DNA of 64,000 nt from Patescibacteria group bacterium (lineage in GTDB: Bacteria > Patescibacteriota > Minisyncoccia > Phycocordibacterales > Phycocordibacteraceae). Within the stretch, counting starts at the first letter, position 1, and the number at the start of each line of letters is the position of its first letter. Of this stretch, positions 586 through 54,736 are shown one piece after another. The notes beneath the pieces are model-generated. The model saw only the letters and a list, made by a program, of their open reading frames with translations. It searched no databases and was not told the origin of the DNA. The position numbers were made by a program, and so were the translations under genes. The stretch is from positions 340,026 through 404,025 of the forward strand of contig JAZKIU010000001.1 of the NCBI GenBank assembly GCA_040384705.1. Reading direction: 5' to 3'.

Positions 586-1254
586 ATGATACGTAAGGCT
601 TTGCTCGGCTGCGTGGCCGTAGCCGCTGTGTCGCTCGCTCTTCCCGTCCAGGCCGCCACCAACTTGGTCCTGAACGGGGACTTCGAGCTCGGCAACACCG
701 CCTTCAGCAGCGATTACGCCTACTCCGTCGACACCACGCCGCCGGCCGTCTACGACGTCGACGACGACCCGAATGACGGGCATCCGGCGTTCACCAGCTT
801 CGGCGACCACACGTCCGGGGCTGGCAAGATGATGATCGTCAACGGCTCGGAAGTGCCGGGTCAGCGGGTCTGGTACCAGAACAACGTCAGCGTCACGGCC
901 AACACAACCTATTTCTTCTGGGCCTGGATCGCCTCGGCGCACCCGACCAGCCCCGCCCAGTTGAAGTTCAGCATCAACGGCACCGAGATCGGCTCCACCT
1001 TCATGGCGCCGGCCACGACCGGCAACTGGCAGAAGTTCTATACCCCCTGGAATTCGGGAGCGAACACCACGGCCGACATCGCCCTGGTGAACCAGAACAC
1101 CGACTTCAGCGGCAACGACTTCGCGCTCGATGATCTGGGCCTCTCGACCTCGGTCCCGGAACCCGCCACGTGGGCGATGATGATCATCGGCTTCGGCGGC
1201 GTGGGCTCGGTGCTGCGGCGCCAGCGCCGCAGCCACCTGCTCCAGGTCGCCTAA
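586..1254 (+). CDS. Secreted surface protein with PEP-CTERM-type C-terminal sorting signal (PEPxxWA variant); N-terminal NGDFE carbohydrate-binding-like module
   Basis: Signal peptide MIRKALLGCVAVAAVSLALPVQA; C-terminus VPEPATWAMMIIGFGGVGSVLRRQRR (PEP motif + TM helix + Arg cluster); strong RBS aaaggag 8 nt upstream; extended -10 TGtTATGGT upstream. Confidence 0.75.
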   Translation: MIRKALLGCVAVAAVSLALPVQAATNLVLNGDFELGNTAFSSDYAYSVDTTPPAVYDVDDDPNDGHPAFTSFGDHTSGAGKMMIVNGSEVPGQRVWYQNNVSVTANTTYFFWAWIASAHPTSPAQLKFSINGTEIGSTFMAPATTGNWQKFYTPWNSGANTTADIALVNQNTDFSGNDFALDDLGLSTSVPEPATWAMMIIGFGGVGSVLRRQRRSHLLQVA

Positions 1255-1455: not shown

Positions 1456-2151
1456 ATGACACGCAAGTGGTCATTTGGATGCGTTCTCGCGGCGGCTGTC
1501 ATGGCTGCGGCCAGCTCGCTTCCTGTCGGTGCGGCCAACGCTGCGATCTACGTCAGTGCGACGTCGGGACCCCAAGCGGCTGTGCCGGCTGGGGGCATCC
1601 TCGTCAATTTCGACGACCCGCTTCCCTGGGGTGTCACCCTCAGCGGCAGCTACAGCATCGCTTCGGGCTCCGTCCACAACGTCAACGCCGAGCCCTGGCT
1701 CGACAAGACGAAGTATCTCTTCGCGCCGACGGCCGGGGACTCCTCGGGCAATGCGACCATCATGTTCGCCGACGCGCTGGGCTACAACGGCCTGGACAGC
1801 CTGACCTTCTACTGGGGTTCGGTCGATCAGTACAATACGCTCACGTTCTTGGACCGCCTCGGCGCCCCGATCGCTTCCATCACCGGCGCGGTCTTCCCGC
1901 CGGCGAACGGGACGCAGACCGGAGGGGCCACGAACATCAACTTCACGGCAACCTTCACCAACGAGAGCCGGGGCCTGATCGGCGGCGTGAACTTCGGTTC
2001 TGCTCGTCCCGCGTACGAGCTCGACGACTTCCACCTGGCGACCGGCTCCGTCCCCGAGCCCACCACCTGGGCGATGATGATCATCGGCTTCGGCGGCGCG
2101 GGCGCGATGCTCCGGCGCCAGCGTCGGCGCAATCTGCTTCAGGTCGCCTAG
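1456..2151 (+). CDS. Second PEP-CTERM-type (PEPxxWA) surface protein, unrelated N-terminal domain
   Basis: Signal peptide MTRKWSFGCVLAAAVMAAASSLPVGAANA; C-terminus VPEPTTWAMMIIGFGGAGAMLRRQRRRNLLQVA nearly identical to the first gene at protein and DNA level; extended -10 TGtTATAGT upstream. Confidence 0.75.
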   Translation: MTRKWSFGCVLAAAVMAAASSLPVGAANAAIYVSATSGPQAAVPAGGILVNFDDPLPWGVTLSGSYSIASGSVHNVNAEPWLDKTKYLFAPTAGDSSGNATIMFADALGYNGLDSLTFYWGSVDQYNTLTFLDRLGAPIASITGAVFPPANGTQTGGATNINFTATFTNESRGLIGGVNFGSARPAYELDDFHLATGSVPEPTTWAMMIIGFGGAGAMLRRQRRRNLLQVA

Positions 2152-2244: not shown

Positions 2245-2317
2245 CTTTTTAGAAATATATAAAGAAAACCGCCCACCAAGTGCGACCCCGATGGGCAGCT
2301 TTCTTAGTGGGCGGGTG

Positions 2318-2863
2318 TTAGACCGCGCCGGGGTGTTCCCAGTCGAAGAAGACGCGCTTTTCGCGGTCGGTCACATTGCTGTCCAGTTCCCCGACATCTT
2401 TGCCAGGATAGATGGAGTGAACGACAGCGACAGCCTCGCCACCTTCAGACTTGAGCTCGAAGACAAGAGTGAGTTCATTCGTCTTCGGCACGAGCAGGTC
2501 GGTACGACCGGGCTTCACGCGAAGTCCCCAGCTCCTGCGGTTCAGATGGAACTCTTCGAGATCATCATTCGCGTAGTTCTGGAGCGCGCCGGTGCTCTCC
2601 CAGCCGACAGGCATCGAGTGAACGATGCTGACACTGCTGGTGCCGAACTCCTGCTTCGACCACAGCTCATCGAGCTCGGTCAGGAAGTGCTCCACCACCT
2701 CGCAGTCACTGAACAGCTGGTCGGCCGAGCACCACCGCAGGAAGTTCCCCGCGAGTGGCAGGGCGGTGCCGCGAAAGCATTTGGTCCACAACCGCTCTTC
2801 AGTGGTGCGCCGAACGACAATAGCGACACGAATACCGCTATTCAAGGTCTTGTAAATGAACAT
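2318..2863 (-). CDS. Hypothetical protein (181 aa), cargo of the first repeat-bounded cassette
   Basis: Clean ORF with non-shadow amino-acid composition, bounded by the two 32 nt repeats; a hairpin with T-run on the minus strand (2262-2300) downstream; AT-rich cassette ends. Confidence 0.5.
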   Translation of the reverse strand: MFIYKTLNSGIRVAIVVRRTTEERLWTKCFRGTALPLAGNFLRWCSADQLFSDCEVVEHFLTELDELWSKQEFGTSSVSIVHSMPVGWESTGALQNYANDDLEEFHLNRRSWGLRVKPGRTDLLVPKTNELTLVFELKSEGGEAVAVVHSIYPGKDVGELDSNVTDREKRVFFDWEHPGAV

Positions 2864-2970
2864 TTTTCCTCCTGCCAGGCTTCCTGGTTCAGGTCCGTGT
2901 ATGGCACGGATACCACATCAGAACGGGGTGTTCGGATGAATGTAAAATACTATCTAAATATAAAAAGTCA

Positions 2971-3002
2971 AGCGGGCCCACTGGAACCTTATTCGAACAG
3001 AA
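2971..3002 (+). repeat. 32 nt direct repeat copy 2 (1 mismatch to copy 1)
   Basis: agcgggcccactggaaccttattcgaacagaa. Confidence 0.7.
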
Positions 3003-3093
3003 TTGCTAAACAAGGGCGCAAGCGTATAGTCATGGCGGGATCCTGTCCCTTGCATAGGCGCTCCGATAAGCGGGGCTTAGAAGGAATATCCAA

Positions 3094-3906
3094 ATGACCG
3101 AATCGGTTTACGGGATTACCATCCCCACTGATTTAGAGTGGAATATCCCGTTCCAAAGCTGGATTGATCGGTGGAACTCGGTACAGGACGTACCGACGGC
3201 TATCGGGCTACTGCATAGTATCTATGAGGCGAACAAGGATGAGGAAAGGTCCGGGCGTAAATATGATGACCATCGCGCACTTTTTCTCCTCAAGCTGGCT
3301 GATGGCCATCGGAGGAACAGTCGCTCGGGTCTCGCGACCAAAGCATTCAATGTTCTCGGGCATTACCTATTCCGAAACGCGCACCGCCCTCGCCTCCATG
3401 ATCTTTCGGCGGAGATGAAGCGCGCGCTCCTCGCTTTCTTCGCAGGCGGGGACAGGGATGCTCTTTATGGGAACGTCCGTTGGAACGATGCTGGCACGAC
3501 ACAGTCCGAGCAGGTGACTCACGCGGACCGGCTGGCATCCGCATTTATGCGCGAGCTCTGCGATGTTGTGTGGTGCTCGGGAAGCGATGAGGAGCGGGTG
3601 CAGCTCATCGATATCTTGCATGAACAGGACGCGCTCAGAACGATAATCCCTCGGAACTACTACACTGGCTGGGATAGGTTCACGGAACCGGTCATGCAGA
3701 AGCTCGAGGAAGTCGTGAGGTCGACGGGTGATGCTAGGCTCGGGACCGATACTCCGACGCCGGAGGAGCTCATTTATAACGGCTCTGAGGCGGCCCAGGT
3801 TCTGCTTGTGAGCCGTGCTGGCAGTGAGGGCAAGGCTCGGGTCGAGCGTCGCAAGGCGCTCAAGGAGCAGATGCAACAAAATGCTTCAGAACTGGCGCAG
3901 CTCTGA
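3094..3906 (+). CDS. Hypothetical protein (270 aa), cargo of the second cassette, between repeat copy 2 and tRNA-Trp
   Basis: ORF MTESVYGITIPTDLEWNIPFQSW...; no recognisable motif; followed by terminator hairpin. Confidence 0.5.
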   Translation: MTESVYGITIPTDLEWNIPFQSWIDRWNSVQDVPTAIGLLHSIYEANKDEERSGRKYDDHRALFLLKLADGHRRNSRSGLATKAFNVLGHYLFRNAHRPRLHDLSAEMKRALLAFFAGGDRDALYGNVRWNDAGTTQSEQVTHADRLASAFMRELCDVVWCSGSDEERVQLIDILHEQDALRTIIPRNYYTGWDRFTEPVMQKLEEVVRSTGDARLGTDTPTPEELIYNGSEAAQVLLVSRAGSEGKARVERRKALKEQMQQNASELAQL

Positions 3907-3955: not shown

Positions 3956-3957
3956 AG

Positions 3958-4028
3958 CGGGCCCAGTAGGAATCGAACCTACGCCATCGGATTTGGAGGC
4001 CGAAGTTCTACCATTAAACTATAGGCCC
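3958..4028 (-). tRNA. tRNA-Trp (anticodon CCA), no encoded CCA tail
   Basis: Reverse complement GGGCCTATAGTTTAATGGTAGAACTTCGGCCTCCAAATCCGATGGCGTAGGTTCGATTCCTACTGGGCCCG: 7 bp acceptor (one G-U), D arm GTTT/GAAC, anticodon loop CTCCAAA, T arm GTAGG-TTCGATT-CCTAC. Confidence 0.8.
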
Positions 4029-4153
4029 TAAGCGAGATCACGCAGCGTAGCCTTGTGCGCCAAGAAATTCTCGGCTCTCGTCCTGTCAGATTAGCAGAAA
4101 CCATCTTGTGGGCAAAGGAGCCGCGCCCTGCGCTTTGCGGGTACAATAGCTCT

Positions 4154-5233
4154 ATGCACCCGTTCCGGGCCTTTCTCCTCATTGCGCTCGCGTTCTGCGT
4201 ATTCATGCCGCAGCCGCTTATCGCTGCCGAGCTGCCGCTCCTCGATCCGGGTTGGTCCATCGTCCCAGACCCGAGCGAGCTCGATTCCTCCTGCAGGCCA
4301 ACCGACCCGCTCGGTATGGGCGGAATACTCGTGCTCGTGCAGAACCTCATGAATGCCGCCGTCTCGCTTACGGTCATCGTGATGGTGATCGTCATCGCGT
4401 ACGCAGGATTCCTCTTTCTCACCTCGCCCTTCAATAGCGAGAACCGCAGCAAGGCGAAGAGCACGCTCGCCGGCACCTTCATGGGCGTCATCATCGTGCT
4501 CGCTGGGTGGCTCCTCGTCGACTTCGTCATGAAAGTCGTCTATGACCCCGATGCGGTCTTCGCCGGCAAGCAGATAGGTCCTTGGAGTCAGATAATCACA
4601 GGGGGCGATGCCTGCATCAAGGCCCGCGACACAAAGCCACTCTTCGGTAGCCTTCCCTTCTCGCCAGGAGGAGGACCGAGCGTGAATGCGGAGCTCGGTG
4701 CCGGCGGCGGATACGCAGGTCCCGGCCAACCCGCATCGCTCGGTACCGCTGACTGCTCGCCGAGCCGCATTGCGACTGCAGCAGCCGCCGGCGGGTACCG
4801 GCTCACGGACGCGCAGGCGAATACGTTCTCGTGCCTCGCTAAGTCGGAGAGCTCGTGCGGACAGAATATCAGCGGTGCTAAGACGAAAGACGGAAAGAGC
4901 ACGACGGCACACGGCATGTTCCAGGTGGTGATGGGATACGATGATCAGTGCCATAATCTCAATATTCCTGTGTGCAGTGCAGCTGCGAAGAGGGCGGGGT
5001 GGACGGGGTCCGGCAACCTGAATTGCTCCACGGCGTTCAGCGGTGGAAAGCCGAAGAAAGGGATGGAAGCGCTTGCGAACGTATGCAAGGCGGCCTCCGC
5101 GAGCATCGATTGCAATGCATCGGCTGCTGCTTGCTTGGTTAAAGAGAGTCCAAGCTTCCGTGATTGGACGGGCACCGGTGACGGGCACACCCATGCCGCG
5201 CAGAAAGCCTGCGTCGCGAAGTATGCTAAGTAA
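4154..5233 (+). CDS. TrbC/VirB2-like pilin domain fused to a lytic-transglycosylase-like (SLT/lysozyme-like) C-terminal domain
   Basis: Signal peptide MHPFRAFLLIALAFCVFMPQPLIAAE; two TM helices flanking SPFNSENRSKAKSTL (pilin-like SxxNPExxxxAK core); C-terminal LAKSESSCGQNISGAKTKDGKSTTAHGMFQVVMGY fits the SLT motif ES...GA...G(L/M)(M/F)Q; Cys-rich tail; -10 TACAAT 8 nt before the ATG. Confidence 0.55.
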   Translation: MHPFRAFLLIALAFCVFMPQPLIAAELPLLDPGWSIVPDPSELDSSCRPTDPLGMGGILVLVQNLMNAAVSLTVIVMVIVIAYAGFLFLTSPFNSENRSKAKSTLAGTFMGVIIVLAGWLLVDFVMKVVYDPDAVFAGKQIGPWSQIITGGDACIKARDTKPLFGSLPFSPGGGPSVNAELGAGGGYAGPGQPASLGTADCSPSRIATAAAAGGYRLTDAQANTFSCLAKSESSCGQNISGAKTKDGKSTTAHGMFQVVMGYDDQCHNLNIPVCSAAAKRAGWTGSGNLNCSTAFSGGKPKKGMEALANVCKAASASIDCNASAAACLVKESPSFRDWTGTGDGHTHAAQKACVAKYAK

Positions 5234-5242
5234 CATGCACCT

Positions 5243-5812
5243 ATGAACAAGAAACTCCTGATACTCATCGCGTCCATCGTCCTCCTTGCGCTCGCTGCGG
5301 TAGCATTCCTGCTGCTCCGTACACCTAGCACGGGCGAACCAGAGCAGCCTGATGGCGGCACGTTGTTCCCGGGTGGTGGGAATATCCTTCCGGGCACGCC
5401 GGTAACCGGCAGGATGATGATCTACGGACGCGGCGATACCGAGTTCGAGGTCAATGATTTCATGCACGACCAGGTCACCGTCGCCGATGTCGTGAACCCT
5501 GGCAATTATGTGCTCGCGGGCGAGCTCGGGTATTGCCTTGCGGACGGCACCTGCCCGAGGGGGGCGGATACTCCCACGTTCTCCATCTCCTTCAATGACG
5601 AAGACGATACATTTAACATCGTGCTGCTTGCCGAGCCACTCGGAGAGGTACGCCGCGCGGCAGAGACCCATCTCCAGAGCCGTCTCGGCCTCTCCAACGA
5701 GGTGATGTGCGAGCTTAACTACTACGTCGGGACCCCATCGTTCGTGAACGCTTCGTACAGCAACGGGAACATGGGATTCAGCTATTGCTCGGGCGCGGTT
5801 AAGCTCCCCTAA
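5243..5812 (+). CDS. Small N-terminally membrane-anchored hypothetical protein between the two pilin-fusion genes
   Basis: MNKKLLILIASIVLLALAAVAFLLL TM anchor; 10 nt from the upstream gene and 4 nt from the downstream gene, so likely co-transcribed. Confidence 0.5.
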   Translation: MNKKLLILIASIVLLALAAVAFLLLRTPSTGEPEQPDGGTLFPGGGNILPGTPVTGRMMIYGRGDTEFEVNDFMHDQVTVADVVNPGNYVLAGELGYCLADGTCPRGADTPTFSISFNDEDDTFNIVLLAEPLGEVRRAAETHLQSRLGLSNEVMCELNYYVGTPSFVNASYSNGNMGFSYCSGAVKLP

Positions 5813-5816
5813 TCAT

Positions 5817-6749
5817 ATGAAGGGCACTCTCATCGCAATAGTCATCTTTCTCGGCGTGTTCCTCATCGCCTCGCCCGCGGCGTACGCAGCGGAATCGACG
5901 TTCTTCGGTCCCATCGTCCCAACCGAATGCCAGAGCTGTCCCTGCGGATATGCTGGGGTGCTTGAGATAATCCGGCACCTCATGAACTTCGCGGTGTCGT
6001 TCGGCGTCATCGTCGTGACCATCATGCTCGCATGGGGCGGCTTCATGTATATCGTTTCGGTCGCGAATCCCGAGAATCGGCGTCAGGCGAATAGCCTCAT
6101 CAGCGGTGCTGTCATCGGGCTCTTCCTGGTGCTCGGCTCGTGGCTCATCATCGATTTCATAATGCGTGCGGCATATAGTGGGCCGGACGGTACGGAAGGG
6201 AAGTTCGGTCCCTGGAACAGCATCCTCGCCGAGAGTGCGGACTTCTGCATCGTTGCGAAGCAGACGAAGCCGCTATTCAGCGACCTGGACTTCAGCGGCC
6301 CGAGTACGAATCCGACGGATGCCGATCCGAACACGAATCCGGTCGATCCGAGTATGCCAGTTGATCCGAAGGCGGATGGCAAGTTCTCGTACCAGGGAGG
6401 CATAAGCGCGCAGGCTGGACACGCAGCACCGGTGCTCAATTCGCTCCTCTCCTGCATGGCTGCTCGCGTCCCTGCGAACGTCGGCCAGATATCATCTATC
6501 TCCGATAGCCGGATCGTGAACGGCGATAAGACATTCGTGCAGTGCAATCAAGGCGGTTGCGCCCATTCCGCGGGCTCATGCCACTACGGAGGCAATCAAT
6601 GTACCGGCAAATCCTACGCCGTCGACTTCGGTGATGAGGTGAACAAAGTCGTGCTCATGAAAGCGGCGCGTGCGTGCGGCGCGAACTTCGTGAAAGACGA
6701 AGGCGATCACGTCCACGTGAGCGTGGGAGCGAGCTGCGGCTGCAACTAA
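5817..6749 (+). CDS. Second TrbC/VirB2-like pilin domain fused to a Cys/His-rich C-terminal domain (possibly LAS/M15-like metallopeptidase)
   Basis: Signal peptide plus two TM helices around VSVANPENRRQANSLI; Pro/Asp-rich linker; C-terminal CAHSAGSCHYGG...AVDFGDE...GDHVHVSV with His/Asp spacing reminiscent of Zn-dependent cell-wall peptidases; the peptidase call is weak. Confidence 0.5.
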   Translation: MKGTLIAIVIFLGVFLIASPAAYAAESTFFGPIVPTECQSCPCGYAGVLEIIRHLMNFAVSFGVIVVTIMLAWGGFMYIVSVANPENRRQANSLISGAVIGLFLVLGSWLIIDFIMRAAYSGPDGTEGKFGPWNSILAESADFCIVAKQTKPLFSDLDFSGPSTNPTDADPNTNPVDPSMPVDPKADGKFSYQGGISAQAGHAAPVLNSLLSCMAARVPANVGQISSISDSRIVNGDKTFVQCNQGGCAHSAGSCHYGGNQCTGKSYAVDFGDEVNKVVLMKAARACGANFVKDEGDHVHVSVGASCGCN

Positions 6750-7579
6750 GAAGCTTTCGTCAGCTTACGTAGCCATGCCTTCTGATGGCGCGCATAGTGC
6801 CAGAGCTTTGCGGATAGGGCAGGGAGGAGCGATTCCTGGTCGCGCTCACCGCGTAGGAACTCACCAACCATTCTATACTCGAGCCCTAGCTCATTGAGCC
6901 GGTCATCTCCCACGTATGCCCGCACTCGCTCCACCTCTTCGATGAGGCCGTTCTCGAATGCTTTCTCGAGTCTGCTATCTATTCGTGCCCTGAGCTCATC
7001 GCGCTCAATATCGAGAACAATCCATTCAACCCGATAGCGGGGGATTGCGTCGTCACGAACAGGCACCTGCCCATGCTCCGCGATTATCTCAAGCGCACGC
7101 ACGAGCCTCCGCTTGTTATTCGGATCTATCTTCGAGGCTCTCCTCGGATCGAGTTCGCGTATCTCGCTCATGAGGCTCTCCGCGCTCCTTGCTTCAAGCT
7201 CCGTGCGAAGCAGGGGATCAGGCGTCGTTCCTATGGGCAGTCCGTACAAGAGCGCGTCGAAATAGAAGTGGGTGCCGCCTGCGAGGATAGGTTCTTTACC
7301 GCGCGCTCGGATAGACGAGATGAGGGAAGTCGCGTCTTTCATGAAGTCGCCAGCGCTATAGGCATCCTTGGGATCTCTGATATCGATGAGGTGGTGGGGA
7401 ATGCCCTCCATCTCCTCTGGGCTTGTCTTCTCCGTACCGATATCGAGCATGCGATAGACCTGCCGGGAATCGACCGATATGACTTCCCCACCGCATTCCT
7501 TCGCGAGCGCTACCGCACGCGCAGATTTGCCCGACGCCGTCGGGCCCACAACGCACTTCAGGGGCAATTCATCATTCAT
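6746..7579 (-). CDS. miaA: tRNA dimethylallyltransferase
   Basis: VVGPTASGKSARAVALAKECGGEVISVDSRQVYRMLDIGTEK... P-loop and DSRQVYRxxDIGT motif. Confidence 0.85.
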   Translation of the reverse strand: MNDELPLKCVVGPTASGKSARAVALAKECGGEVISVDSRQVYRMLDIGTEKTSPEEMEGIPHHLIDIRDPKDAYSAGDFMKDATSLISSIRARGKEPILAGGTHFYFDALLYGLPIGTTPDPLLRTELEARSAESLMSEIRELDPRRASKIDPNNKRRLVRALEIIAEHGQVPVRDDAIPRYRVEWIVLDIERDELRARIDSRLEKAFENGLIEEVERVRAYVGDDRLNELGLEYRMVGEFLRGERDQESLLPALSAKLWHYARHQKAWLRKLTKAS

Positions 7580-33365: not shown

Positions 33366-36095
33366 ATGGAGGGACCCATACGACCTATAGCCTCGCCCGA
33401 GGCCGAGCTTGCGTATCTTCGCGAGCAGATAGCCGCGAAGGAGGCGGAGCTCGCGCAGCTGCAGGAGAGCCGGCCGCGTGAAGAGATCGCGCATGAACGC
33501 ATACTGCATCATGCGCAGAATACGCAGGCGGAACACTATGCTCCTGGATATCAGCTACCTGCGGAATCAGTCGAGGCACTGACGCTTTCGCTCGACCCGG
33601 AACAGAACGATGAGACCATGGCCGAACTACGCACCCTCATCGAGACGAAAGGAGTGCGCAACGCGTTCGCGGTGCTCGAGAAGCTCAAGAGCCCGCACCT
33701 CGAGGATGATTTCCACCGGTTCCTCGTGCAGTACGTAGTGGCAGGCATGCAGGTGCAAGGCCTTCGTGAGAACGAGCCCGAGTGGAAGGCGCTACACATG
33801 AGCTTGTATGAGATAGCGCTGCCGGAGATGGCAGGAGGAGATGATAAAGATAGGGCACGGCCGCTGAAAGAGCTCCTCTCCTCCATGGAGCAGTTCTACG
33901 CCGGCATGCTCTCGCTCGAGCACGCGCATAAGGGTGAGCACCCGTACTTCTCGCTTGAGCTCGCGATAGCGGTCGATGCCCCCCACCTCATGTTCTATGC
34001 CGCGGTGCCCAATACCCGCCGTGACCTCTTCGAGAAGCAGCTTCTCGCCATATTCCCGAATGCAGTGGTGAAGATGCAGCCCAACGACTACAACATCTTC
34101 GTCGAGGATGGGACGAGCGTGGGCTCCTATGCGCTCCAGAAGGATAATCCGCTCCTTCCGCTCAAGGACTACACGGACTTCGACTACGACCCGCTCAACA
34201 CGCTCCTGAACGCATTCGCGAAGATATCGTCCGAAGGGGAAGGCGCTTCGCTCCAGATACTGCTCAAGCCCCGCGGCAACCACTACATCGAGCATTATAA
34301 GAAAGTGCTGCATGCGCTGCGCGAGGGGCAGTCACGCGCCAAGGCATTTTCCATACCGGAGACGTTCGTCGGCGATCTCGCCAAGGAGGCAGTGAACATA
34401 TTCACCTCGAGCAAGAAGATACCGCACGACCCTACCAAAGCCGACCAAGCAGCTATCGAGGCGCTCGAGAAGAAGATAGCGGCGCCGATAATAAATACGA
34501 ACATGCGCCTCGTGGTCTCTTCGAGGGATCCGCATAGGGCAGAGCAGATACTCACCGAGCTCGAGTCCGCCTTCAATCAGTTCGAGAATACGAAAGGGAA
34601 CCGGCTCGAATGGAAGCGTGCGAGCGGAGGTGACGCGAAGAAGCTCTTCCGCAATTTCTCGTACCGCTTGTTCGGCACACCATCGCTTCCGCTGTCGCTT
34701 CGCGAGGTGTCGACGATGTACCACTTCCCGCCCAAAGGCATCGAGTCATCGCCGCACCTCACCCAATCCCGCTTCACGAGCGCTGCGGCTCCTGTGGGCC
34801 TCCCGCAGGACGGGGTGCTGCTCGGTACGAACACGTTCCGCGGTTCGGCCACCGAGGTCAGGCTTGCGAACGAGGACCGTCTTCGCCATCTCTATGTCAT
34901 CGGGCAGACCGGTACGGGTAAGACATCGTTCATGAAGACGCTCATCGAGCAGGACATCAAGGCCGGGAACGGCGTCTGCTTCATCGACCCGCACGGCAAC
35001 GATATCCTCGACGTTCTCGCATCCATCCCGCCCGAGCGGTACGAAGACGTCATATACTTCGACCCGGCATACATCGATAGGCCGTTCGGTCTCAACTTGC
35101 TGGAATACGATGCCTCGCGCCCTGAGCAGAAGACATTCATCGTGAACGAGCTTCTCGCTATCTTCCGCAGGCTATATGGGGACGTGCCGGAGTCGATGGG
35201 CCCCGCCTTCGAGCAGTACTTCCGCAATGCGACCCTGCTCGTGATGGAGGACCCGGCATCGGGCTCCACCCTCATGGATATCGGCCGCGTGCTCTCGAAC
35301 AAGGCGTTCCGGGACATGAAGCTCGCAAAGTCCATGAACCCCATCGTGAACCAGTTCTGGAACGAGATAGCAACGCAGGCGGATGGGGAGGCATCACTCG
35401 CGAACATCGTGCCGTATATCACGAACAAGTTCGATGACTTCACTGCCAACGACTTCATGCGCCCTATCATCGGCCAGCAGGAGTCCTCCTTCAAGTTCCG
35501 CGACGTCATCGATGGGAAGAAGATACTGCTCGTGAACCTCTCGAAGGGACGGCTCGGCGAGCGCAACGCGAACCTGCTCGGGCTCATCCTCGTCGGGAAG
35601 CTCTTCATGGCAGCGCTCTCGCGGGCCGACGACCCCCGTGCCGACTTCCCGCCGTTCTATCTATACATAGACGAGTTCCAGAACATCACCACGGACTCCA
35701 TTCCGAGCATTCTTTCCGAGGCTCGCAAATACAAGCTTTCCCTCACCATCGCGCACCAGTTCCTGGCTCAAGTGGATGAGAAGGTGCGGGATGCGGTGTT
35801 CGGTAACGTTGGAAGCATGGCGGTGTTCCGGGTGGGCGAGGCGGACGGGGAATTTTTCGCCAAGCAGTTCGCTCCCGTGTTCGGAGCGCTCGATTTCGTG
35901 AACATCGAGAACTACAACGCCTACATACGCATGCTTTCGAAGGGAGTGCCGCAGAAGCCGTTCAACTTTAAATCAGTGCCGCCATCCACAGGCAACCTCG
36001 CGCAGGTGGACGATCTCCGCGAACTTTCCTACCTCACCTACGGGCGGGAACGTGCTACTGTTGAGAGCACTATAAGAAGCCGCTATCTTTCCTGA
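33366..36095 (+). CDS. Large P-loop ATPase of the VirB4/TraC/HerA superfamily (909 aa)
   Basis: Walker A YVIGQTGTGKTS followed by FIDPHGN; Walker B FYLYIDEFQN; ARKYKLSLTIAHQF; roughly 480 aa N-terminal domain without recognisable motif. Confidence 0.6.
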   Translation: MEGPIRPIASPEAELAYLREQIAAKEAELAQLQESRPREEIAHERILHHAQNTQAEHYAPGYQLPAESVEALTLSLDPEQNDETMAELRTLIETKGVRNAFAVLEKLKSPHLEDDFHRFLVQYVVAGMQVQGLRENEPEWKALHMSLYEIALPEMAGGDDKDRARPLKELLSSMEQFYAGMLSLEHAHKGEHPYFSLELAIAVDAPHLMFYAAVPNTRRDLFEKQLLAIFPNAVVKMQPNDYNIFVEDGTSVGSYALQKDNPLLPLKDYTDFDYDPLNTLLNAFAKISSEGEGASLQILLKPRGNHYIEHYKKVLHALREGQSRAKAFSIPETFVGDLAKEAVNIFTSSKKIPHDPTKADQAAIEALEKKIAAPIINTNMRLVVSSRDPHRAEQILTELESAFNQFENTKGNRLEWKRASGGDAKKLFRNFSYRLFGTPSLPLSLREVSTMYHFPPKGIESSPHLTQSRFTSAAAPVGLPQDGVLLGTNTFRGSATEVRLANEDRLRHLYVIGQTGTGKTSFMKTLIEQDIKAGNGVCFIDPHGNDILDVLASIPPERYEDVIYFDPAYIDRPFGLNLLEYDASRPEQKTFIVNELLAIFRRLYGDVPESMGPAFEQYFRNATLLVMEDPASGSTLMDIGRVLSNKAFRDMKLAKSMNPIVNQFWNEIATQADGEASLANIVPYITNKFDDFTANDFMRPIIGQQESSFKFRDVIDGKKILLVNLSKGRLGERNANLLGLILVGKLFMAALSRADDPRADFPPFYLYIDEFQNITTDSIPSILSEARKYKLSLTIAHQFLAQVDEKVRDAVFGNVGSMAVFRVGEADGEFFAKQFAPVFGALDFVNIENYNAYIRMLSKGVPQKPFNFKSVPPSTGNLAQVDDLRELSYLTYGRERATVESTIRSRYLS

Positions 36096-36100
36096 TACGT

Positions 36101-37879
36101 ATGTCTAGAGAAGGGGGACCTCCGCAGAAGCAAGCACGGGAAGCGTCATTCGAAGGCGGCTTGTCTTCGGTGTTGGAAACGCTCGAAGCAGAATCCAAGA
36201 CCACAGGAATGGTGAGCGAGGGGACGCGTGAAGCGATCGAGGCCGAGCTCGTGAGGATGGAAAGCGAGGCGGATGCGGAAGCCAAGAGGATTAAGGCTGA
36301 TGTGGAGCGCACATCCGAGGAGAAGACGAGCGACCTGGCCGACATCAAGAAGCTGCGGACAGTCATCACCCAGTACCGTAAATATTCTTCCACATCGATA
36401 GAACCGATTTCCCGCGTCATCAAGGTCGTGAAGGAGGTCGGGCAAGCATACGGTGTCATGAAGGGGCAGTCTGTAGAGAAGGTAGAGGACGCTCCTCGTG
36501 AAGAAGTTAAAGATGAGCCTGTCGTCGTTTCGGTTGAGGAAGAACCTACGGTCGAACCGTCAGGAGACGATGATGATGCGCTGGAACCCGTCCTTGCTCC
36601 GGACGCACCACCGATCGCCGAAGTCCCTCTGAAGAAGGATAAAGCTGAGCGCGGCCCAACACCTGCGGAAACAGCTGCAGCAAAGAGGCAGAAGATCGAA
36701 GCCGAGGTGAAGGCGAAGCAGGAAGCGCTTAGCGAGATCTACTTTGCGCTCGCTGATGAAATACACGAGGCGGGATTGAAAGTGCAGGATATACAAACGG
36801 AATGGAATCGTGTCATAGAAGTTCGCGAAAGGCTGAACGCTCACTGCGAGAAGTACAAGGGTACCGCGACTCGCAAGCTTCTCGATAAAGAGAGTGAGGA
36901 GTTATTCGACGAGTTCACGGGTCCGGTAAGCGAGGGGGTCAGGCACGCGATAGCTCGGGTCCTGCTTGAGCGTAGCAAGTTCGCGGCTAATCCGGACGCG
37001 GACTCTCGCGCGGAAAAAGAGGATGTGCTCGAGGACGTAGTCACGAAGCTTGCGGCGACCGAGGACCAGCCGATAGTGATGGTGAATACCGTGCTCACGC
37101 GTATGGCTATGGGCGGAAAGAGCTCTAAGAAGCTACCCCCGACCGCATTCCCCGCATTCCAACCGGACAAAGTACAAAAGCTCGAGCCCGAAAAACTTAA
37201 AACATTTGCTCAAAAGGCCGCTCGGCACCGTGAGGACAGGCTCGATACGAGACGGCGGATACATGGCATACGTGGGTTCTTACAGGTCGCGGGCAACGCA
37301 GGGTTCGCAGGATTCTTGGGCCTTCTTGCGTTCGGTCATAACCATGACTCAAAGGATGTGATGAAGCCGAAGGCACAACCTGCTGCAGGAAGCCCGCTTA
37401 ATCAGACGGCTGCTGCGACTGAGAAGCCAACGCACTCCACCGACAAACCGCCTGCTCAACAGGTCCAGAGACCCACGACGGAAACCGTTAGCGCGGCACA
37501 GCCGGAAGTCGTGAAGATAATGACTGCTCCAGAAGTTAAGAAGTATAGGGCTATGCCTAAGGACGAGATGGAAGCCTGGAAGCGACGCTTCAGTCTTTGG
37601 ACGCGCGCGAAGTACCCGAAGGGATATGTAGAAGCGGATACGGAGAAGGTACGGAAGGAAATGCTCACGGAACTCAAATATCCAGCCAACTATCCTGCAA
37701 AGAAGCGGGACGTGGCTAAGAAGCCACGGAGCCCCAAGGAATCCGTTATGACTGCCTCGATTGAGTCAGCAGGCAGCTTCGGGCCTCCGTTACCTGCTCC
37801 TCCCGCGCCATCACGCGAGGAACCCCGTATCATGTCTCTTGAGGAGTATGTGCAGAGCGAAGCGGGCAAGAAGCCCTAA
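36101..37879 (+). CDS. Large acidic, coiled-coil-rich hypothetical protein (592 aa), 6 nt downstream of the ATPase
   Basis: Glu/Lys/Ala-rich low-complexity N half, Pro-rich middle, basic C-terminal part; same strand and tight spacing imply co-transcription. Confidence 0.5.
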   Translation: MSREGGPPQKQAREASFEGGLSSVLETLEAESKTTGMVSEGTREAIEAELVRMESEADAEAKRIKADVERTSEEKTSDLADIKKLRTVITQYRKYSSTSIEPISRVIKVVKEVGQAYGVMKGQSVEKVEDAPREEVKDEPVVVSVEEEPTVEPSGDDDDALEPVLAPDAPPIAEVPLKKDKAERGPTPAETAAAKRQKIEAEVKAKQEALSEIYFALADEIHEAGLKVQDIQTEWNRVIEVRERLNAHCEKYKGTATRKLLDKESEELFDEFTGPVSEGVRHAIARVLLERSKFAANPDADSRAEKEDVLEDVVTKLAATEDQPIVMVNTVLTRMAMGGKSSKKLPPTAFPAFQPDKVQKLEPEKLKTFAQKAARHREDRLDTRRRIHGIRGFLQVAGNAGFAGFLGLLAFGHNHDSKDVMKPKAQPAAGSPLNQTAAATEKPTHSTDKPPAQQVQRPTTETVSAAQPEVVKIMTAPEVKKYRAMPKDEMEAWKRRFSLWTRAKYPKGYVEADTEKVRKEMLTELKYPANYPAKKRDVAKKPRSPKESVMTASIESAGSFGPPLPAPPAPSREEPRIMSLEEYVQSEAGKKP

Positions 37880-49415: not shown

Positions 49416-49692
49416 GTGAGCGTGGGCCCAGAAACGCCCTATTGATCCTCGAAAGAAACCATTCGCCACAGGGAGACCGCCCATGTACCGCATCCGATTG
49501 CGAAGCTCCTCGTAGAATGAAAACGCTCTGGCGGACGTGACGTCCGCATGCGAAACAAAGGCCACTTAGGGGTTTACGACCGATAGCTACCAGACGCTTC
49601 TGTCCGAGGGGTTCGCCCCAAAGAAGTAAGCAGACGAGCTTGACGGCAATGCCCACTCAAATAATGGCCGCCTGCAACGATGCAGCAAAGTG

Positions 49693-49752
49693 CCCATCCG
49701 GCCATGCCGGATGGGAGAAGGACCCAAGCTCACGCGCGGGTCCTTTTACTTT
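49693..49752 (+). terminator. Tandem hairpins plus T-run ending the promoter-driven non-coding unit, just upstream of ddl
   Basis: cccatccggc-cat-gccggatggg (perfect 10 bp stem) then ggaccc-N12-gggtcc then ttttactttatc. Confidence 0.5.
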
Positions 49753-49795
49753 ATCTATACTTAGTTCTTGCTTGTGCTTGCTATACTTCACCCAT

Positions 49796-50770
49796 ATGAG
49801 AGGCACGGTAGTGGGTGTTCTTCGGGGCGGGCCTTCGAGCGAGCACGAGGTGTCGCTGCGGAGCGGTCACACCATGCTCCGTAATCTGCCCGAGGACGCG
49901 TACACCGCGCGCGATATCTATATAGACAAGAAGGGTGTGTGGCACGAGCGCGGTGTCGCTACCACGCCCGACCGCATTCTTCCTACGCTCGATGTAGCGC
50001 TCATCGCGCTCCATGGGAACTATGGCCAGGACGGGGAAGTGCAGAAGCTCCTGGAGAAGTTCGGAGTGCCGTACACAGGTGCCGACCCGTGGGGCTCGTT
50101 CCTCTCGGGCCACAAGATGATGGCGAAGAATCATGCGATAGAGGCCGGGCTCATGACACCGGCCTACCGGTTCGTGGAGCGAGTGGAATCTATCGATGAC
50201 ATCGTGCTTGAGGTGACGCGCTCCTTCCATCAGCCGGTGGTGGTGAAGCCGGTGGATTCGGGATCATCGGTGGGCGTATCGGTGGTGGGCGGATACGCAC
50301 CGGTGCATCTGGCGGTCACGAACCTCTTCCTCGCAGGCACCAAGGGAGTGCTCATCGAGGAGCTCATAAGGGGCACGGAGGCTACCGTGGGTGTCGTCGA
50401 AGGTATGCGAGGCGAGGGGCTGTATGCGCTTCCTCCGGTGGAGATAGTGCCACCCTCTACTGCTGGATTCTTTTCATACGACGCGAAGTATTCGGGCGAG
50501 AGCCAGGAGATATGCCCGGGACGGTTCTCACGGCCGGTCTCCCAAGCGCTTATGGAAGCCGCGTGCATCGCGCACGCATCTCTCGGGCTTCGGCATTACT
50601 CCCGTTCCGACTTCATCGTCTCCACGAAAGGTATCTATTATCTCGAGACCAATAACGCAGCTGCGGTCGGTATGACGGATGCGTCCTTGTTCCCTAAGGC
50701 GCTCGATTCGGTCGGTATCTCGCTTCCGGAGTTTCTCTCGCACGTTGTTGAGCTCGCTATACGGAAATAG
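49796..50770 (+). CDS. ddl: D-alanine--D-alanine ligase
   Basis: VGVLRGGPSSEHEVSLRSG N-terminus; ATP-grasp; the in-frame upstream extension to 49640 crosses the terminator hairpins so is not coding. Confidence 0.8.
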   Translation: MRGTVVGVLRGGPSSEHEVSLRSGHTMLRNLPEDAYTARDIYIDKKGVWHERGVATTPDRILPTLDVALIALHGNYGQDGEVQKLLEKFGVPYTGADPWGSFLSGHKMMAKNHAIEAGLMTPAYRFVERVESIDDIVLEVTRSFHQPVVVKPVDSGSSVGVSVVGGYAPVHLAVTNLFLAGTKGVLIEELIRGTEATVGVVEGMRGEGLYALPPVEIVPPSTAGFFSYDAKYSGESQEICPGRFSRPVSQALMEAACIAHASLGLRHYSRSDFIVSTKGIYYLETNNAAAVGMTDASLFPKALDSVGISLPEFLSHVVELAIRK

Positions 50771-54609: not shown

Positions 54610-54736
54610 CAGGGATTTGGGCGGTGTGCCAGGCACTACCAATAGTCTAGCGACATTTCTTTCATTAGGGAACCGTGCATTTGTATAAGTGCACAACGGT
54701 GGCGGGAGCGATGATGAATATGCTAGGGTCAAACCA

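What the first reader, a model, noticed from the sequence alone, without database searches (positions are those of the whole stretch)
4154..6749. Three-gene cassette: two VirB2/TrbC-like pilin domains fused to cell-wall-hydrolase-like domains, with a small membrane protein between
Both large ORFs begin with a signal peptide followed by the two-helix pilin-like core seen in TrbC/VirB2 proteins (...SPFNSENRSKAKSTL... and ...VANPENRRQANSLI... between two hydrophobic helices). Each then continues into a roughly 200 aa Cys-rich extracytoplasmic domain.

In the first ORF this domain has an SLT/lysozyme-like motif, ES...GA...GMFQV. In the second it has a His/Asp pattern that could be a LAS/M15-type peptidase.

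Fusion of a T4SS-type pilin to peptidoglycan-cleaving domains, duplicated with different enzymatic heads, is not a textbook arrangement. VirB1-like hydrolases are normally separate proteins.

The cassette sits directly across tRNA-Trp from the att-like cassettes. That suggests it is part of the same accessory hotspot. It could be a surface appendage that locally opens cell wall, in this cell or in a host or partner cell.
Basis: partly seen in the sequence, partly recalled or inferred. Interest (0 to 1): 0.7.

Follow-up and report, generated by a model that had tools for sequence, protein, structure and literature searches.

The report
Pilin-anchored cell-wall-cutting enzyme pair
A small Patescibacteria genome carries a conserved three-gene set in which two secretion-system pilin-like membrane stalks each bear a different cell-wall-cutting enzyme, and these enzyme heads are swapped between close relatives, an arrangement I did not find described in the papers I could search and which may help explain how these tiny bacteria open cell walls.

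Summary
Three tightly packed same-strand genes lie at 4154-5233, 5243-5812 and 5817-6749.

ORF1 and ORF3 share a 41%-identical N-module. It consists of a signal peptide, a VirB2/TrbC-type two-helix pilin hairpin (Pfam T4SS_pilin) and a Cys-containing neck. A low-complexity linker then leads to unrelated disulfide-rich heads.
- The ORF1 head is lysozyme/lytic-transglycosylase-like, with an invariant catalytic Glu232.
- The ORF3 head is a LAS (Hedgehog/DD-peptidase) zinc-peptidase fold with invariant His/Asp/His. No Pfam model covers it.

ORF2 is a single-pass membrane protein. It follows the pilin-glycosidase gene in 60 of 61 species-level loci.

The "accessory hotspot" reading is wrong. The order tRNA-Trp, cassette, miaA, parB, relA, topA is conserved core synteny across Paceibacteria and Kaiserbacteria.

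The new point is modularity. Stalks up to 97% identical carry different peptidase heads (four main types), and glycosidase heads and stalks also have discordant histories.

Most likely this is a tethered glycan-cutter plus peptide-cutter that opens peptidoglycan locally. Whether the target is the cell's own wall or a host's wall is unresolved.

It is a new variant of known kinds (patescibacterial VirB2-like pilins; VirB1-type hydrolases). Databases call these proteins only "pilin", and I found no description of the fusion in the searchable papers.

The parts
3957..4028 (-). tRNA-Trp (CCA), the conserved left boundary of the cassette
   Evidence: ARAGORN. The same tRNA sits directly upstream of the cassette in 13 of 14 related loci. 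The variable island lies on its other (3') side.
4142..4147 (+). TACAAT -10-like hexamer ending 6 nt before the ORF1 ATG (possible leaderless transcript)
   Evidence: Sequence read. A similar hexamer at a similar distance is seen in L001, L003, L007 and L009. The consensus promoter scan found no full -35/-10 site.
4154..5233 (+). ORF1, pilin-stalk glycosidase (359 aa; NCBI MES2994801.1, named 'pilin')
   Evidence: There are 71 homologue clusters; the source names, where given, are Patescibacteria-group names.
4154..4228 (+). ORF1 signal peptide (aa 1-25, ...PLIA/AE)
   Evidence: Hydrophobic segment aa 6-24. It aligns with the N-termini of the homologues.
4319..4543 (+). ORF1 VirB2-type hairpin (aa 56-130): two helices joined by the basic loop NSENRSKAKS
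   Evidence: Pfam T4SS_pilin matches aa 61-125. AlphaFold2 predicts helices 55-90 and 95-130 at pLDDT about 76-87. NCBIfam Mbov_0395 pilin-like family matches at E 6e-6, below its curated cut-off.
4544..4738 (+). ORF1 neck (GPW..I...C154, invariant Cys) and low-complexity Gly/Pro linker (aa 131-195)
   Evidence: W144 and C154 are invariant. pLDDT is below 50 for aa 158-186. Linker identity is 35%, against 45-48% for the flanking modules.
4739..5230 (+). ORF1 lysozyme/lytic-transglycosylase-like head (aa 196-359); catalytic Glu232 is codon 4847-4849
5243..5812 (+). ORF2, single-pass membrane protein (189 aa; MES2994802.1): TM aa 5-27, Pro/Gly linker, then a roughly 124-aa outer domain with 4 invariant Cys (98, 104, 156, 182)
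   Evidence: There is no Pfam, NCBIfam, PHROG or PDB sequence match. It lies immediately downstream of the pilin-glycosidase gene in 60/61 loci.
5817..6749 (+). ORF3, pilin-stalk zinc peptidase (310 aa; MES2994803.1, named 'pilin')
   Evidence: There are 226 homologue clusters.
5817..5888 (+). ORF3 signal peptide (aa 1-24, ...AYA/AE)
   Evidence: Hydrophobic segment aa 4-22; alignment A2.
5949..6176 (+). ORF3 VirB2-type hairpin (aa 45-120), basic loop NPENRRQANS
   Evidence: Pfam T4SS_pilin matches aa 50-115 at 31.8 bits, above the cut-off. AlphaFold2 predicts helices 45-80 and 85-119 at pLDDT 84-95.
6177..6371 (+). ORF3 neck (GPWNSIL...C144) and Pro-rich linker (aa 121-185); this is the recombination zone where heads are exchanged
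   Evidence: Identity to P0090 is 80% up to aa 163 and then nil. pLDDT is below 50 for aa 161-169.
6372..6746 (+). ORF3 LAS-type (Hedgehog/DD-peptidase fold) head (aa 186-310); His256 is codon 6582-6584, Asp270 is 6624-6626, His300 is 6714-6716
6746..7579 (-). miaA (tRNA isopentenyltransferase), the convergent and conserved right boundary
   Evidence: Pfam IPPT E 6e-65. It is in the same position in L001, L003, L005, L007, L009 and L086.

Best explanation
The cassette encodes a tethered two-enzyme peptidoglycan cutter plus an obligate partner protein.

ORF1 and ORF3 are paralogous carriers. After Sec export and signal-peptide cleavage, a VirB2/TrbC-type hairpin sits in the membrane. Its short basic loop faces the cytoplasm, and both ends face outward. 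An invariant Cys just after helix 2 lies next to the Cys-containing N-terminal segment in the models, so a disulfide staple is possible.

A flexible 35-65-aa linker then holds a disulfide-rich catalytic head in or beyond the wall.
- The ORF1 head is a lysozyme-superfamily glycan cutter. It has a single catalytic Glu and no second Asp, which is the lytic-transglycosylase or goose-type pattern.
- The ORF3 head is a LAS zinc peptidase that would cut the peptide stems or cross-links.

Together they supply the same glycan-plus-peptide division of labour as the bifunctional VirB1-type hydrolases of Gram-positive type IV secretion systems (T4SS). Here the two activities are split over two proteins, each carried on a pilin-type module.

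The stalk is conserved much more strongly than an ordinary membrane anchor. I therefore infer that it docks to, or co-assembles with, the T4SS-pilin pathway rather than merely anchoring. ORF2 probably regulates, shields or escorts the glycosidase.

Heads are exchanged by recombination inside the linker, so substrate specificity is being varied.

What is shown: gene order, domain architecture, topology signals, folds, conserved catalytic residues, synteny and head swapping.

What is inferred: enzymatic activity, the disulfide staple, interaction with a T4SS or pilus, the role of ORF2, and the target. My rough split on the target is 45% own wall at a trans-envelope structure, 35% host or partner wall, and the rest both.
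For: Architecture and topology.

Glycosidase head:
- Invariant E232/G254/Q257.
- SLT_3 in 28/54 relatives.
- Profile match to c-type lysozyme at E 2.6e-4, with the catalytic Glu aligned and lysozyme Asp53 aligned to a conserved Ala.

Peptidase head:
- Invariant H250/H256/D270/H300, which align with Shh H135/H141/(D148)/H183 (zinc ligands as given in PMC6027127).

The heads are under purifying selection. Mean pairwise identity is 47.5% and 59.7% for the heads, against 28-35% for the linkers.

The stalk is more than an anchor. Hairpin identity is 44-45% and the N-terminal outer segment 65%. The ORF2 TM anchor is only 25% identical although its domain is 57% identical.

Conserved operon: 60/61 loci have ORF2 right after the pilin-glycosidase gene, and 37/62 also have a second pilin-peptidase.

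Functional equivalence of heads: the second stalk carries four main peptidase-like head types. By motif, two singleton heads look NlpC/P60-like and a third singleton is unassigned.

The genome makes its own peptidoglycan (Ddl and MltG/YceG are in the window).

T4SS pilins are among the highly expressed unknown-function genes in a Paceibacteria co-culture (PMC10936435). They are essential in a Saccharibacterium (PMC10633639).
Against: - No T4SS machine genes flank the cassette in any locus seen.
- The only T4SS-superfamily gene in the window is a soluble, weakly TraD/VirD4-like ATPase 27 kb away.
- Paceibacteria are reported to have separate VirB1 homologues next to virB4 (PMC12102498), so a VirB1 substitute is not obviously needed.
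- ORF1's T4SS_pilin score is just under Pfam's cut-off. Two-helix hydrophobic modules also attract spurious membrane-family hits at E 1e-2 to 1e-4.
- The His-to-Asp spacing in the LAS head is 13 residues instead of the canonical 6, because of a Cys-containing insert. The ligand assignment therefore rests on alignment and fold, not on coordinates.
- Foldseek against the PDB found nothing significant for ORF1.
- No activity, localisation or pilus has been demonstrated for any member.
Confidence: 0.55

Rival explanations
1. Lytic pilus or host-directed weapon. The stalks are true pilin subunits, extracted from the membrane by the T4SS and polymerised, alone or mixed with short pilins. The enzyme heads then decorate a filament that reaches the host or partner cell and digests its wall at the contact site. 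Head swapping would tune the peptidase to the host's stem-peptide chemistry.
For: - Stalks 88-97% identical carry different head types. Examples: P0075 vs P0124 at 97% (window-type vs VanY); L019 vs P0083 at 98%. Among pairs 90-99% identical, 32% differ in head type.
- Glycosidase heads and stalks have discordant identities. P0033 has stalk 74% and head about 30%; P0030 has stalk 38% and head 63%.
- The stalk is conserved far more than a plain anchor.
- The heads are disulfide-rich, as expected for exposed proteins.
- Patescibacteria are thought to be obligate epibionts, and their lytic transglycosylases have been proposed to compromise host envelopes (PMC11665869).
- From my own knowledge of conjugative pilus structures, both termini of VirB2-type pilins face the pilus exterior. 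A C-terminal head on a linker is therefore sterically conceivable.
Against: - No pilus has been seen for any Patescibacterium T4SS.
- The cassette is not next to virB4 or any assembly gene.
- A 125-165-aa head on every subunit is unprecedented for VirB2 pilins.
- Some Paceibacteria hosts are archaea without peptidoglycan (PMC10936435).
- No immunity gene follows the variable peptidase.
Confidence: 0.2
2. Housekeeping autolysins. The two proteins remodel the cell's own wall for growth, division or daughter-cell separation. The VirB2-like hairpin is simply an inherited membrane anchor with no link to secretion or pili.
For: - The locus is fixed amid housekeeping genes (clpB, rpmG, tRNA-Trp, miaA, parB, relA, topA) across relatives whose ORF1 identity ranges from about 28% to 90%.
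- Nothing similar was found in plasmid, phage or viral collections.
- No T4SS genes are adjacent.
- The genome synthesises peptidoglycan.
- Reduced genomes retain few hydrolases.
Against: - Frequent replacement of the peptidase head between near-identical stalks is unusual for an enzyme matched to one's own stable wall chemistry.
- The hairpin and N-terminal segment are conserved at 44-65%, against 25% for the genuine single-pass anchor of ORF2.
- A signal peptide plus two-helix hairpin is a needlessly elaborate anchor.
Confidence: 0.25
3. Polymorphic toxin and immunity system for competition between bacteria. The conserved N-module is a trafficking domain, the variable heads are toxins delivered to rivals, and ORF2 is the immunity protein.
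For: - A conserved N-module carries swapped C-terminal enzymatic heads.
- A small conserved gene immediately follows the glycosidase gene.
- The N-terminal half of the ORF2 domain, including one Cys pair, differs in loci whose glycosidase head is most divergent (L085, L086).
Against: - The most variable gene (ORF3) has no downstream partner; a convergent miaA follows it.
- ORF2 belongs to one family in all loci instead of switching with head type. Its identity does not track head identity cleanly.
- There is only one copy per genome, at a core locus, with no orphan head or immunity arrays.
- ORF2 shows no sequence match to any solved structure, including known lysozyme inhibitors.
Confidence: 0.1
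4. Non-catalytic adhesins. The heads are degenerate enzyme folds that only bind glycan or peptide, much as Hedgehog's LAS fold is used for signalling. They would serve to attach the cell or pilus to a wall.
For: - The top structural matches of the ORF3 head are Hedgehog ligand domains.
- The H-x13-D spacing is atypical.
- The ORF1 head lacks the second acidic residue of c-type lysozymes.
Against: - All residues equivalent to the Shh/DD-peptidase zinc ligands and the cleft histidines are invariant in 59 sequences. The Glu177-equivalent is mostly kept.
- The catalytic Glu and the GMFQ motif are invariant in 54 sequences. A single Glu is normal for lytic transglycosylases.
- Alternative heads at the same position include VanY with an intact SxHxxGxAxD motif.
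Confidence: 0.07

Closest known systems
VirB2-like pilin arrays of Patescibacteria (Pfam T4SS_pilin PF18895; Wang et al. 2023, PMC10633639; Quinonero-Coronel et al. 2025, PMC12102498)
   Same: The same Pfam family and the same phylum. [quoted passage not shown] NCBI names both large proteins 'pilin'.
   Different: - The described pilins are treated as small pilus subunits inside T4SS clusters.
- Here each carries a linker plus a 125-165-aa peptidoglycan-hydrolase head.
- The genes sit at a core locus away from virB4.
- The heads are shuffled.
- None of the passages or supplements I could search mention hydrolase fusions.
VirB1-type bifunctional hydrolases of Gram-positive T4SSs (PrgK of pCF10, TraG of pIP501, TcpG, CD419/TrsG profiles)
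   Same: Membrane-tethered enzymes that combine a lytic-transglycosylase or muramidase activity with a peptidase activity to open the wall locally for a trans-envelope machine (as summarised in PMC12102498).
   Different: - In those proteins both domains are in one polypeptide with a plain N-terminal anchor, and the gene lies in the T4SS operon.
- Their peptidase is CHAP, NlpC/P60 or M23.
- Here the activities are on two proteins, each anchored by a pilin-type hairpin. The peptidase is LAS-type and interchangeable, and no T4SS genes are adjacent.
Hh/DD-peptidase (MEROPS M15A-like LAS) zinc peptidases, e.g. Streptomyces albus G DD-carboxypeptidase, bacterial Hedgehog-like domains, VanX/VanY, phage L-Ala-D-Glu endolysins
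   Different: - H-x13-D instead of H-x6-D, owing to a Cys-containing insert.
- Eight Cys residues.
- No match to any Pfam peptidase model.
- Found almost only behind a pilin module: 124 of 137 new representatives, with most of the rest being fragments.
Family 1 lytic transglycosylases / SLT_3 (PF18896) and c-type lysozymes (GH22)
   Same: An E-S catalytic motif, a G-(L/M)-(F/M)-Q motif and an A-F-S-G-G motif reminiscent of AYNxG, on a lysozyme-like fold.
   Different: This protein scores below the Pfam cut-offs (14.8 vs 27 bits). It has ten Cys residues. It has an Ala where c-type lysozyme has its second catalytic Asp. It is fused behind a pilin hairpin.
Structural proteins fused to wall hydrolases for local penetration (flagellar FlgJ; phage virion-associated lysins such as tape-measure or internal-core proteins); named from my own knowledge, not tested here
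   Same: The same logic: an assembly or structural module carries a muralytic domain, so the wall is opened only where the structure passes.
   Different: The structural modules and machines are unrelated, and there is no evidence here of a filament or injection device.

Membership tests
VirB2/TrbC-type T4SS pilin (PF04956 / PF18895) | Profile match above the curated threshold | tested here: met
   ORF3 scores 31.8 bits against a cut-off of 26.6. ORF1 scores 26.0 bits, just under it. At family level, 51/54 and 57/59 members match T4SS_pilin at E <= 0.1, and 12/54 and 21/59 match TrbC at E <= 0.1, best E 8e-7.
VirB2/TrbC-type T4SS pilin (PF04956 / PF18895) | Signal peptide followed by two hydrophobic helices joined by a short positively charged loop | tested here: met
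   Hydropathy and sequence. AlphaFold2 helical hairpins at 55-90/95-130 and 45-80/85-119.
VirB2/TrbC-type T4SS pilin (PF04956 / PF18895) | Small protein consisting essentially of the hairpin alone | tested here: not met
   Both proteins continue for 180-230 aa into a linker plus an enzymatic head.
VirB2/TrbC-type T4SS pilin (PF04956 / PF18895) | Encoded within or next to a T4SS gene cluster (virB4, virB6 and others) | tested here: not met
   The neighbours are tRNA-Trp, miaA, ahpC, parB, relA and topA in all loci. The only T4SS-superfamily gene in 64 kb is a soluble TraD/VirD4-like ATPase 27 kb away. The rest of the 640-kb contig could not be inspected.
VirB2/TrbC-type T4SS pilin (PF04956 / PF18895) | Polymerises into an extracellular pilus | not testable with these tools
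   This needs microscopy or biochemistry. No pilus has yet been shown for any patescibacterial T4SS (PMC12857230).
Lysozyme-like superfamily / family 1 lytic transglycosylase (PF01464, PF18896) | Catalytic Glu in an E-S motif plus a G-L/M-x-Q motif | tested here: met
   E232-S233 and G254-M-F-Q257 are invariant or nearly invariant in 54 sequences. Glu232 aligns with Glu35 of human lysozyme.
Lysozyme-like superfamily / family 1 lytic transglycosylase (PF01464, PF18896) | Lysozyme-like fold | tested here: inconclusive
Lysozyme-like superfamily / family 1 lytic transglycosylase (PF01464, PF18896) | Profile match above the curated threshold | tested here: not met
   SLT_3 scores 14.8 bits against a cut-off of 27 for this protein. 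Relatives reach E 3.4e-5, and 28/54 match at E <= 0.1.
Lysozyme-like superfamily / family 1 lytic transglycosylase (PF01464, PF18896) | Cleaves MurNAc-GlcNAc bonds (1,6-anhydro product for a transglycosylase) | not testable with these tools
   This needs muropeptide analysis.
LAS zinc peptidases (M15 / Hedgehog-DD-peptidase fold) | Hedgehog/DD-peptidase fold | tested here: met
LAS zinc peptidases (M15 / Hedgehog-DD-peptidase fold) | H-x(3-6)-D and H-x-H zinc-binding motifs | tested here: inconclusive
   H298-x-H300 is present (H300 invariant). H256 and D270 are invariant but 13 residues apart because of an insert. Their equivalence to Shh H141/D148 rests on the profile alignment and the strand position, not on coordinates.
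LAS zinc peptidases (M15 / Hedgehog-DD-peptidase fold) | Match to a curated peptidase family model (VanY, Peptidase_M15_x, M23) | tested here: not met
   0 of 59 family members match any Pfam peptidase model. Orthologous stalks in relatives carry a true VanY domain instead (PF02557, E 1.3e-12).
VirB1-type T4SS-associated wall hydrolase | Membrane-tethered glycosidase plus peptidase encoded in a T4SS operon and needed for its assembly | tested here: not met
   Tethering and the two activities are present, but on two proteins, and the operon location is not met. Requirement for assembly is not testable here.
Polymorphic toxin / immunity module | Conserved N-terminal module with exchangeable C-terminal toxin, and a cognate immunity gene immediately downstream that switches with the toxin | tested here: inconclusive
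   Exchangeable heads are met. No gene follows the variable peptidase. ORF2 follows the glycosidase but stays one family, with only partial divergence in L085 and L086.

The most novel reading that the evidence does not exclude
These proteins are subunits or decorations of a T4SS-type 'lytic pilus'. In this reading the filament surface displays a glycan cutter and an interchangeable peptide cutter. Paceibacteria would use it to bore through the wall of the cell they live on, with heads swapped by recombination to match host wall chemistry and ORF2 keeping the glycosidase harmless to the producer. That would give the enigmatic, essential patescibacterial T4SS pilins a concrete function in host access.
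Probability: 0.18. Interest if true: 0.85.

Novelty: new variant of a known kind. Interest (0 to 1): 0.62.

Why it matters
Patescibacteria are a large, mostly uncultured part of bacterial diversity and are thought to live attached to other cells. How they breach or remodel walls, and what their unusual VirB2-like pilins do, are open questions.

In the one genetic study available, these pilins are essential. The published survey concluded that most genomes with such pilins lack a VirB1 wall hydrolase.

In a broad Paceibacteria/Kaiserbacteria clade, this cassette shows hydrolase activities physically fused to pilin-type modules. It is kept at a core locus with a dedicated partner protein, and the enzyme heads are shuffled between nearly identical stalks.

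That gives concrete, testable candidates for wall opening at the epibiont surface. It defines a large LAS-peptidase subfamily with no Pfam model (593 clusters at 50% identity). It also offers a natural system for studying domain swapping at a linker.

If the function turns out to be only self-directed, it is still a new way of tethering autolysins.

Tried and rejected
- PHROGs gave nothing useful.
- tblastn of the stalk against plasmids and of the LAS head against phages found nothing. A scan of IMG/VR found no relatives. A recent mobile-element or phage-lysin origin is therefore rejected.
- ORF2 has no Pfam, NCBIfam or PDB sequence match.
- The consensus promoter scan found no sigma-70 site. 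The two terminator-like hits equal the shuffled expectation.
- I looked for a T4SS cluster in the window. I found only a 909-aa soluble ATPase with weak TraD/VirD4/DUF87 matches, followed by an unassignable 592-aa protein. I rejected this pair as a recognisable T4SS.
- I considered the upstream GTG at 4055 as the ORF1 start. I rejected it because the homologues and the signal peptide begin at the ATG at 4154.
- I tested whether ORF2 divergence tracks the glycosidase head, as expected for an immunity protein. The result is ambiguous.

Full report
**What is there.** The window comes from a Patescibacteria metagenome-assembled genome. ORF1 is 100% identical to MES2994801.1, which lies on a 640-kb contig. 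The region holds three + strand genes:
- ORF1 at 4154-5233 (359 aa)
- ORF2 at 5243-5812 (189 aa)
- ORF3 at 5817-6749 (310 aa)

The gaps between them are 9 and 4 nt. tRNA-Trp (3957-4028, - strand) lies just upstream. miaA converges on the ORF3 stop codon.

**The shared N-module.** ORF1 and ORF3 are 41% identical over their first 175 residues (E 3e-32) and unrelated afterwards. Each begins with a hydrophobic signal segment ending in LIA/AE or AYA/AE. Next comes a short Cys-containing segment, then two hydrophobic helices joined by a basic loop (NSENRSKAKS; NPENRRQANS). A conserved neck (GPW-x-x-I ... Cys) follows.
- Pfam T4SS_pilin matches ORF3 above its cut-off and ORF1 0.6 bits below it.
- NCBIfam's Mbov_0395 pilin-like conjugal transfer family matches both weakly.
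- Across relatives, 51/54 and 57/59 match T4SS_pilin, and 12/54 and 21/59 match TrbC/VirB2 (best E 8e-7). That is well beyond the 1e-2 to 1e-4 noise these membrane segments give with unrelated families.
- AlphaFold2 models both as long helical hairpins.
- In both models an isolated beta-bridge pairs the N-terminal outer segment with the residue at the invariant Cys after helix 2 (53/154 in ORF1, 43/144 in ORF3). A disulfide staple is plausible, but this is inference.
- HMMs built from the two N-modules find no other copy in the 64-kb window.

**The heads.** After a low-confidence Gly/Pro-rich linker, each protein ends in a compact domain modelled at pLDDT above 90.

The ORF1 head (aa 196-359, ten Cys) looks like a lysozyme-superfamily glycosidase:
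- Glu232 (in KSESSCG), Gly254 and Gln257 (in HGMFQV) are invariant in 54 sequences.
- SLT_3 matches 28 of 54 relatives, best E 3.4e-5. A few relatives match the c-type lysozyme or SLT families.
- The family profile matches human lysozyme at E 2.6e-4. Glu35 aligns with Glu232, and lysozyme Asp53 aligns with a conserved Ala.
- A single catalytic Glu is the pattern of lytic transglycosylases and goose-type lysozymes (established knowledge).

The ORF3 head (aa 186-310, eight Cys) looks like a LAS zinc peptidase:
- His250, Ser254, His256, Asp270, Asp273 and His300 are invariant, and His298 nearly so.
- A weak profile match to Desert hedgehog lines up HxxxxxSxHYxG and HxHxSV. These include the Shh zinc ligands H141 and H183 named in PMC6027127, while Shh D148 was placed as an insertion.
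- The His-to-Asp spacing is 13 rather than 6, owing to a Cys-containing insert.
- No Pfam peptidase model matches any of the 59 relatives.

**ORF2.** It has one N-terminal transmembrane segment, a Pro/Gly linker and a roughly 124-aa domain with four invariant Cys. It has 26 homologue clusters, and all those with a source name carry Patescibacteria-group names. It matches nothing in Pfam, NCBIfam, PHROGs or PDB sequences.

**Context: core, not accessory.** In relatives whose ORF1 identity ranges from 89% down to about 30%, the order is:

clpB - rpmG - [variable genes] - tRNA-Trp(-) - pilin-glycosidase - ORF2 - (pilin-peptidase) - miaA(-) - (ahpC) - tRNA-Leu - parB - relA - topA

This order is kept, including in Kaiserbacteria. 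In Parcubacteria C7867-008 the pilin-peptidase gene comes first, but ORF2 still follows the glycosidase gene. Only the stretch beyond the 3' end of tRNA-Trp varies. In this window that stretch holds two PEP-CTERM proteins and two unassignable ORFs.

One pattern scan of GTDB species representatives gave 131 confirmed relatives and 75 loci.
- 62 loci have a pilin-glycosidase gene.
- 60 of the 61 loci with enough downstream sequence have ORF2 directly after it.
- 37 loci also have a second, non-glycosidase pilin gene.

Nothing similar was found in plasmid, phage or IMG/VR collections. The rest of the window is housekeeping and includes Ddl and MltG/YceG, so the organism makes peptidoglycan. No T4SS cluster is present. 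A 909-aa soluble ATPase at 33366-36095 has only weak TraD/VirD4/DUF87 similarity.

At the ORF3 position, relatives carry at least four head families behind the same stalk and Pro-rich linker:
- the window type
- VanY (PF02557, E 1.3e-12)
- a 'TGGxExGH...GYK(I/V)D...HWD' type
- a 'TEAYPP...CHxxGTC(V/I)D...H(I)TGxHFS' type

By motif, these last two types look LAS-like. Two of the three singleton heads look NlpC/P60-like by motif. Among 50 species-level second-pilin genes the counts are 13, 11, 11 and 10, plus the singletons.

The window's ORF3 and P0090 are 80% identical up to residue 163 and unrelated after that. P0090 comes from the contig that also encodes the 73%-identical ORF1 orthologue. 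Stalks 88-98% identical can carry different heads, for example P0075/P0124 at 97% and L019/P0083 at 98%. Among pairs 90-99% identical, 32% differ in head type.

The glycosidase gene is mosaic too. Stalk identity and head identity relative to the window are discordant: P0033 has 74% and about 30%, P0009 has 53% and 69%, and P0030 has 38% and 63%.

A profile of the window-type LAS head finds 593 clusters at 50% identity (353 at E <= 1e-10), always at the C-terminus. Of 137 new representatives, 124 have a detectable pilin module, and most of the rest are fragments.

**Constraint.** Mean pairwise identities are as follows:

| Region | ORF1 family | ORF3 family | ORF2 family |
|---|---|---|---|
| Head or domain | 47.5% | 59.7% | 57.5% |
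| Hairpin | 45% | 44% | - |
| N-terminal outer segment | 66% | 65% | - |
| Linker | 35% | 28% | - |
| Single-pass TM anchor | - | - | 25% |

The heads behave like working enzymes. The stalk behaves like something with specific partners, not a generic anchor.

**Interpretation.** The best-supported reading is a tethered two-enzyme wall cutter, a glycan cutter plus a peptide cutter, carried on pilin-type modules, with ORF2 as a dedicated partner of the glycosidase. It works like the SLT-plus-peptidase VirB1-type hydrolases of Gram-positive T4SSs, but it fails their membership test on operon location and on the single-polypeptide layout. It matches T4SS_pilin profiles and topology, but it fails the 'small, hairpin-only, T4SS-encoded' features of classical VirB2.

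Whether the stalks polymerise, and whether the target is the producer's own wall or a host's wall, cannot be decided here. Core-locus conservation and the lack of adjacent T4SS genes favour a self-directed or housekeeping role. Rapid head exchange, strong stalk conservation and the epibiotic lifestyle favour a host-directed role. A polymorphic toxin/immunity reading is weakened because the variable gene lacks a partner and because ORF2 stays one family.

**Novelty.**
[quoted passage not shown] It states that most pilin-bearing genomes lack VirB1 (PMC12102498; PMC10633639; PMC12857230).
- T4SS pilins are reported among the highly expressed genes in a Paceibacteria co-culture (PMC10936435).
- I found no mention of pilin-hydrolase fusions, of the head swapping or of the ORF2 partner in the searchable literature or the 2025 paper's supplements. 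The library is incomplete, so prior description cannot be excluded.
- Databases label the proteins 'pilin', 'hypothetical protein' or 'D-alanyl-D-alanine carboxypeptidase family protein'.

I rate it a new variant of known kinds, of real but not extraordinary interest.

Noticed in passing
window 586-1254 (+) and 1456-2151 (+): Two paralogous secreted proteins end in a PEP-CTERM sorting motif (PF07589, E about 3e-7). They lie in the variable stretch between rpmG and tRNA-Trp. PEP-CTERM/exosortase sorting is unexpected in a Patescibacterium. No exosortase was looked for.
   Followed up: no
window 2291-3906 (ORFs 2318-2863 -, 3094-3906 +): Two ORFs have no Pfam or NCBIfam match. They occupy the position that differs in every relative: a response regulator in L001, GH130/mannose genes in L007, small unknown genes elsewhere. 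The real variable island therefore lies on the 3' side of tRNA-Trp, not on the cassette side.
   Followed up: partly
window 33366-36095 (+) and 36101-37879 (+): A 909-aa soluble ATPase has no predicted TM segment. It shows weak DUF87/TraG-D_C/TrwB and TraD/VirD4-like matches far below the family cut-offs and no PDB sequence match. An acidic 592-aa protein with no match follows it. This is an isolated pair, not a recognisable T4SS cluster.
   Followed up: partly
window 4142-4147; L001, L003, L007, L009 upstream of the first cassette gene: A TACAAT/TATGAT-like hexamer ends about 6 nt before the ORF1 start codon and recurs in relatives. This suggests a leaderless transcript. No Shine-Dalgarno-like sequence is evident before ORF2 or ORF3.
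   Followed up: partly
L053 4862-5956, L054 4933-6077, L074 1-765: In some species the ORF2-family gene is duplicated in tandem between the two pilin genes.
   Followed up: no
L085 1686-2198, L086 1190-1708: Where the glycosidase head is of a divergent subtype (P0033, P0027), the ORF2 homologue keeps its C-terminal half. It has a different N-terminal half that lacks the first Cys pair. This is a possible sign that ORF2 contacts the head.
   Followed up: partly
L082 (JBLNCF010000017.1) / P0120; several CAY.../CAZ... loci: One carrier of the full cassette is labelled 'Bacillota bacterium', and many TPA assemblies are labelled 'uncultured Candidatus Saccharibacteria'. The synteny is the Paceibacteria one, so these labels may be unreliable. 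I did not verify this.
   Followed up: no
window 49640-50770 (+) and 53554-54732 (-): D-Ala-D-Ala ligase and an MltG/YceG-type transglycosylase are encoded in the same window. The organism therefore builds its own peptidoglycan with D-Ala-D-Ala termini, which are potential substrates of the cassette enzymes.
   Followed up: no
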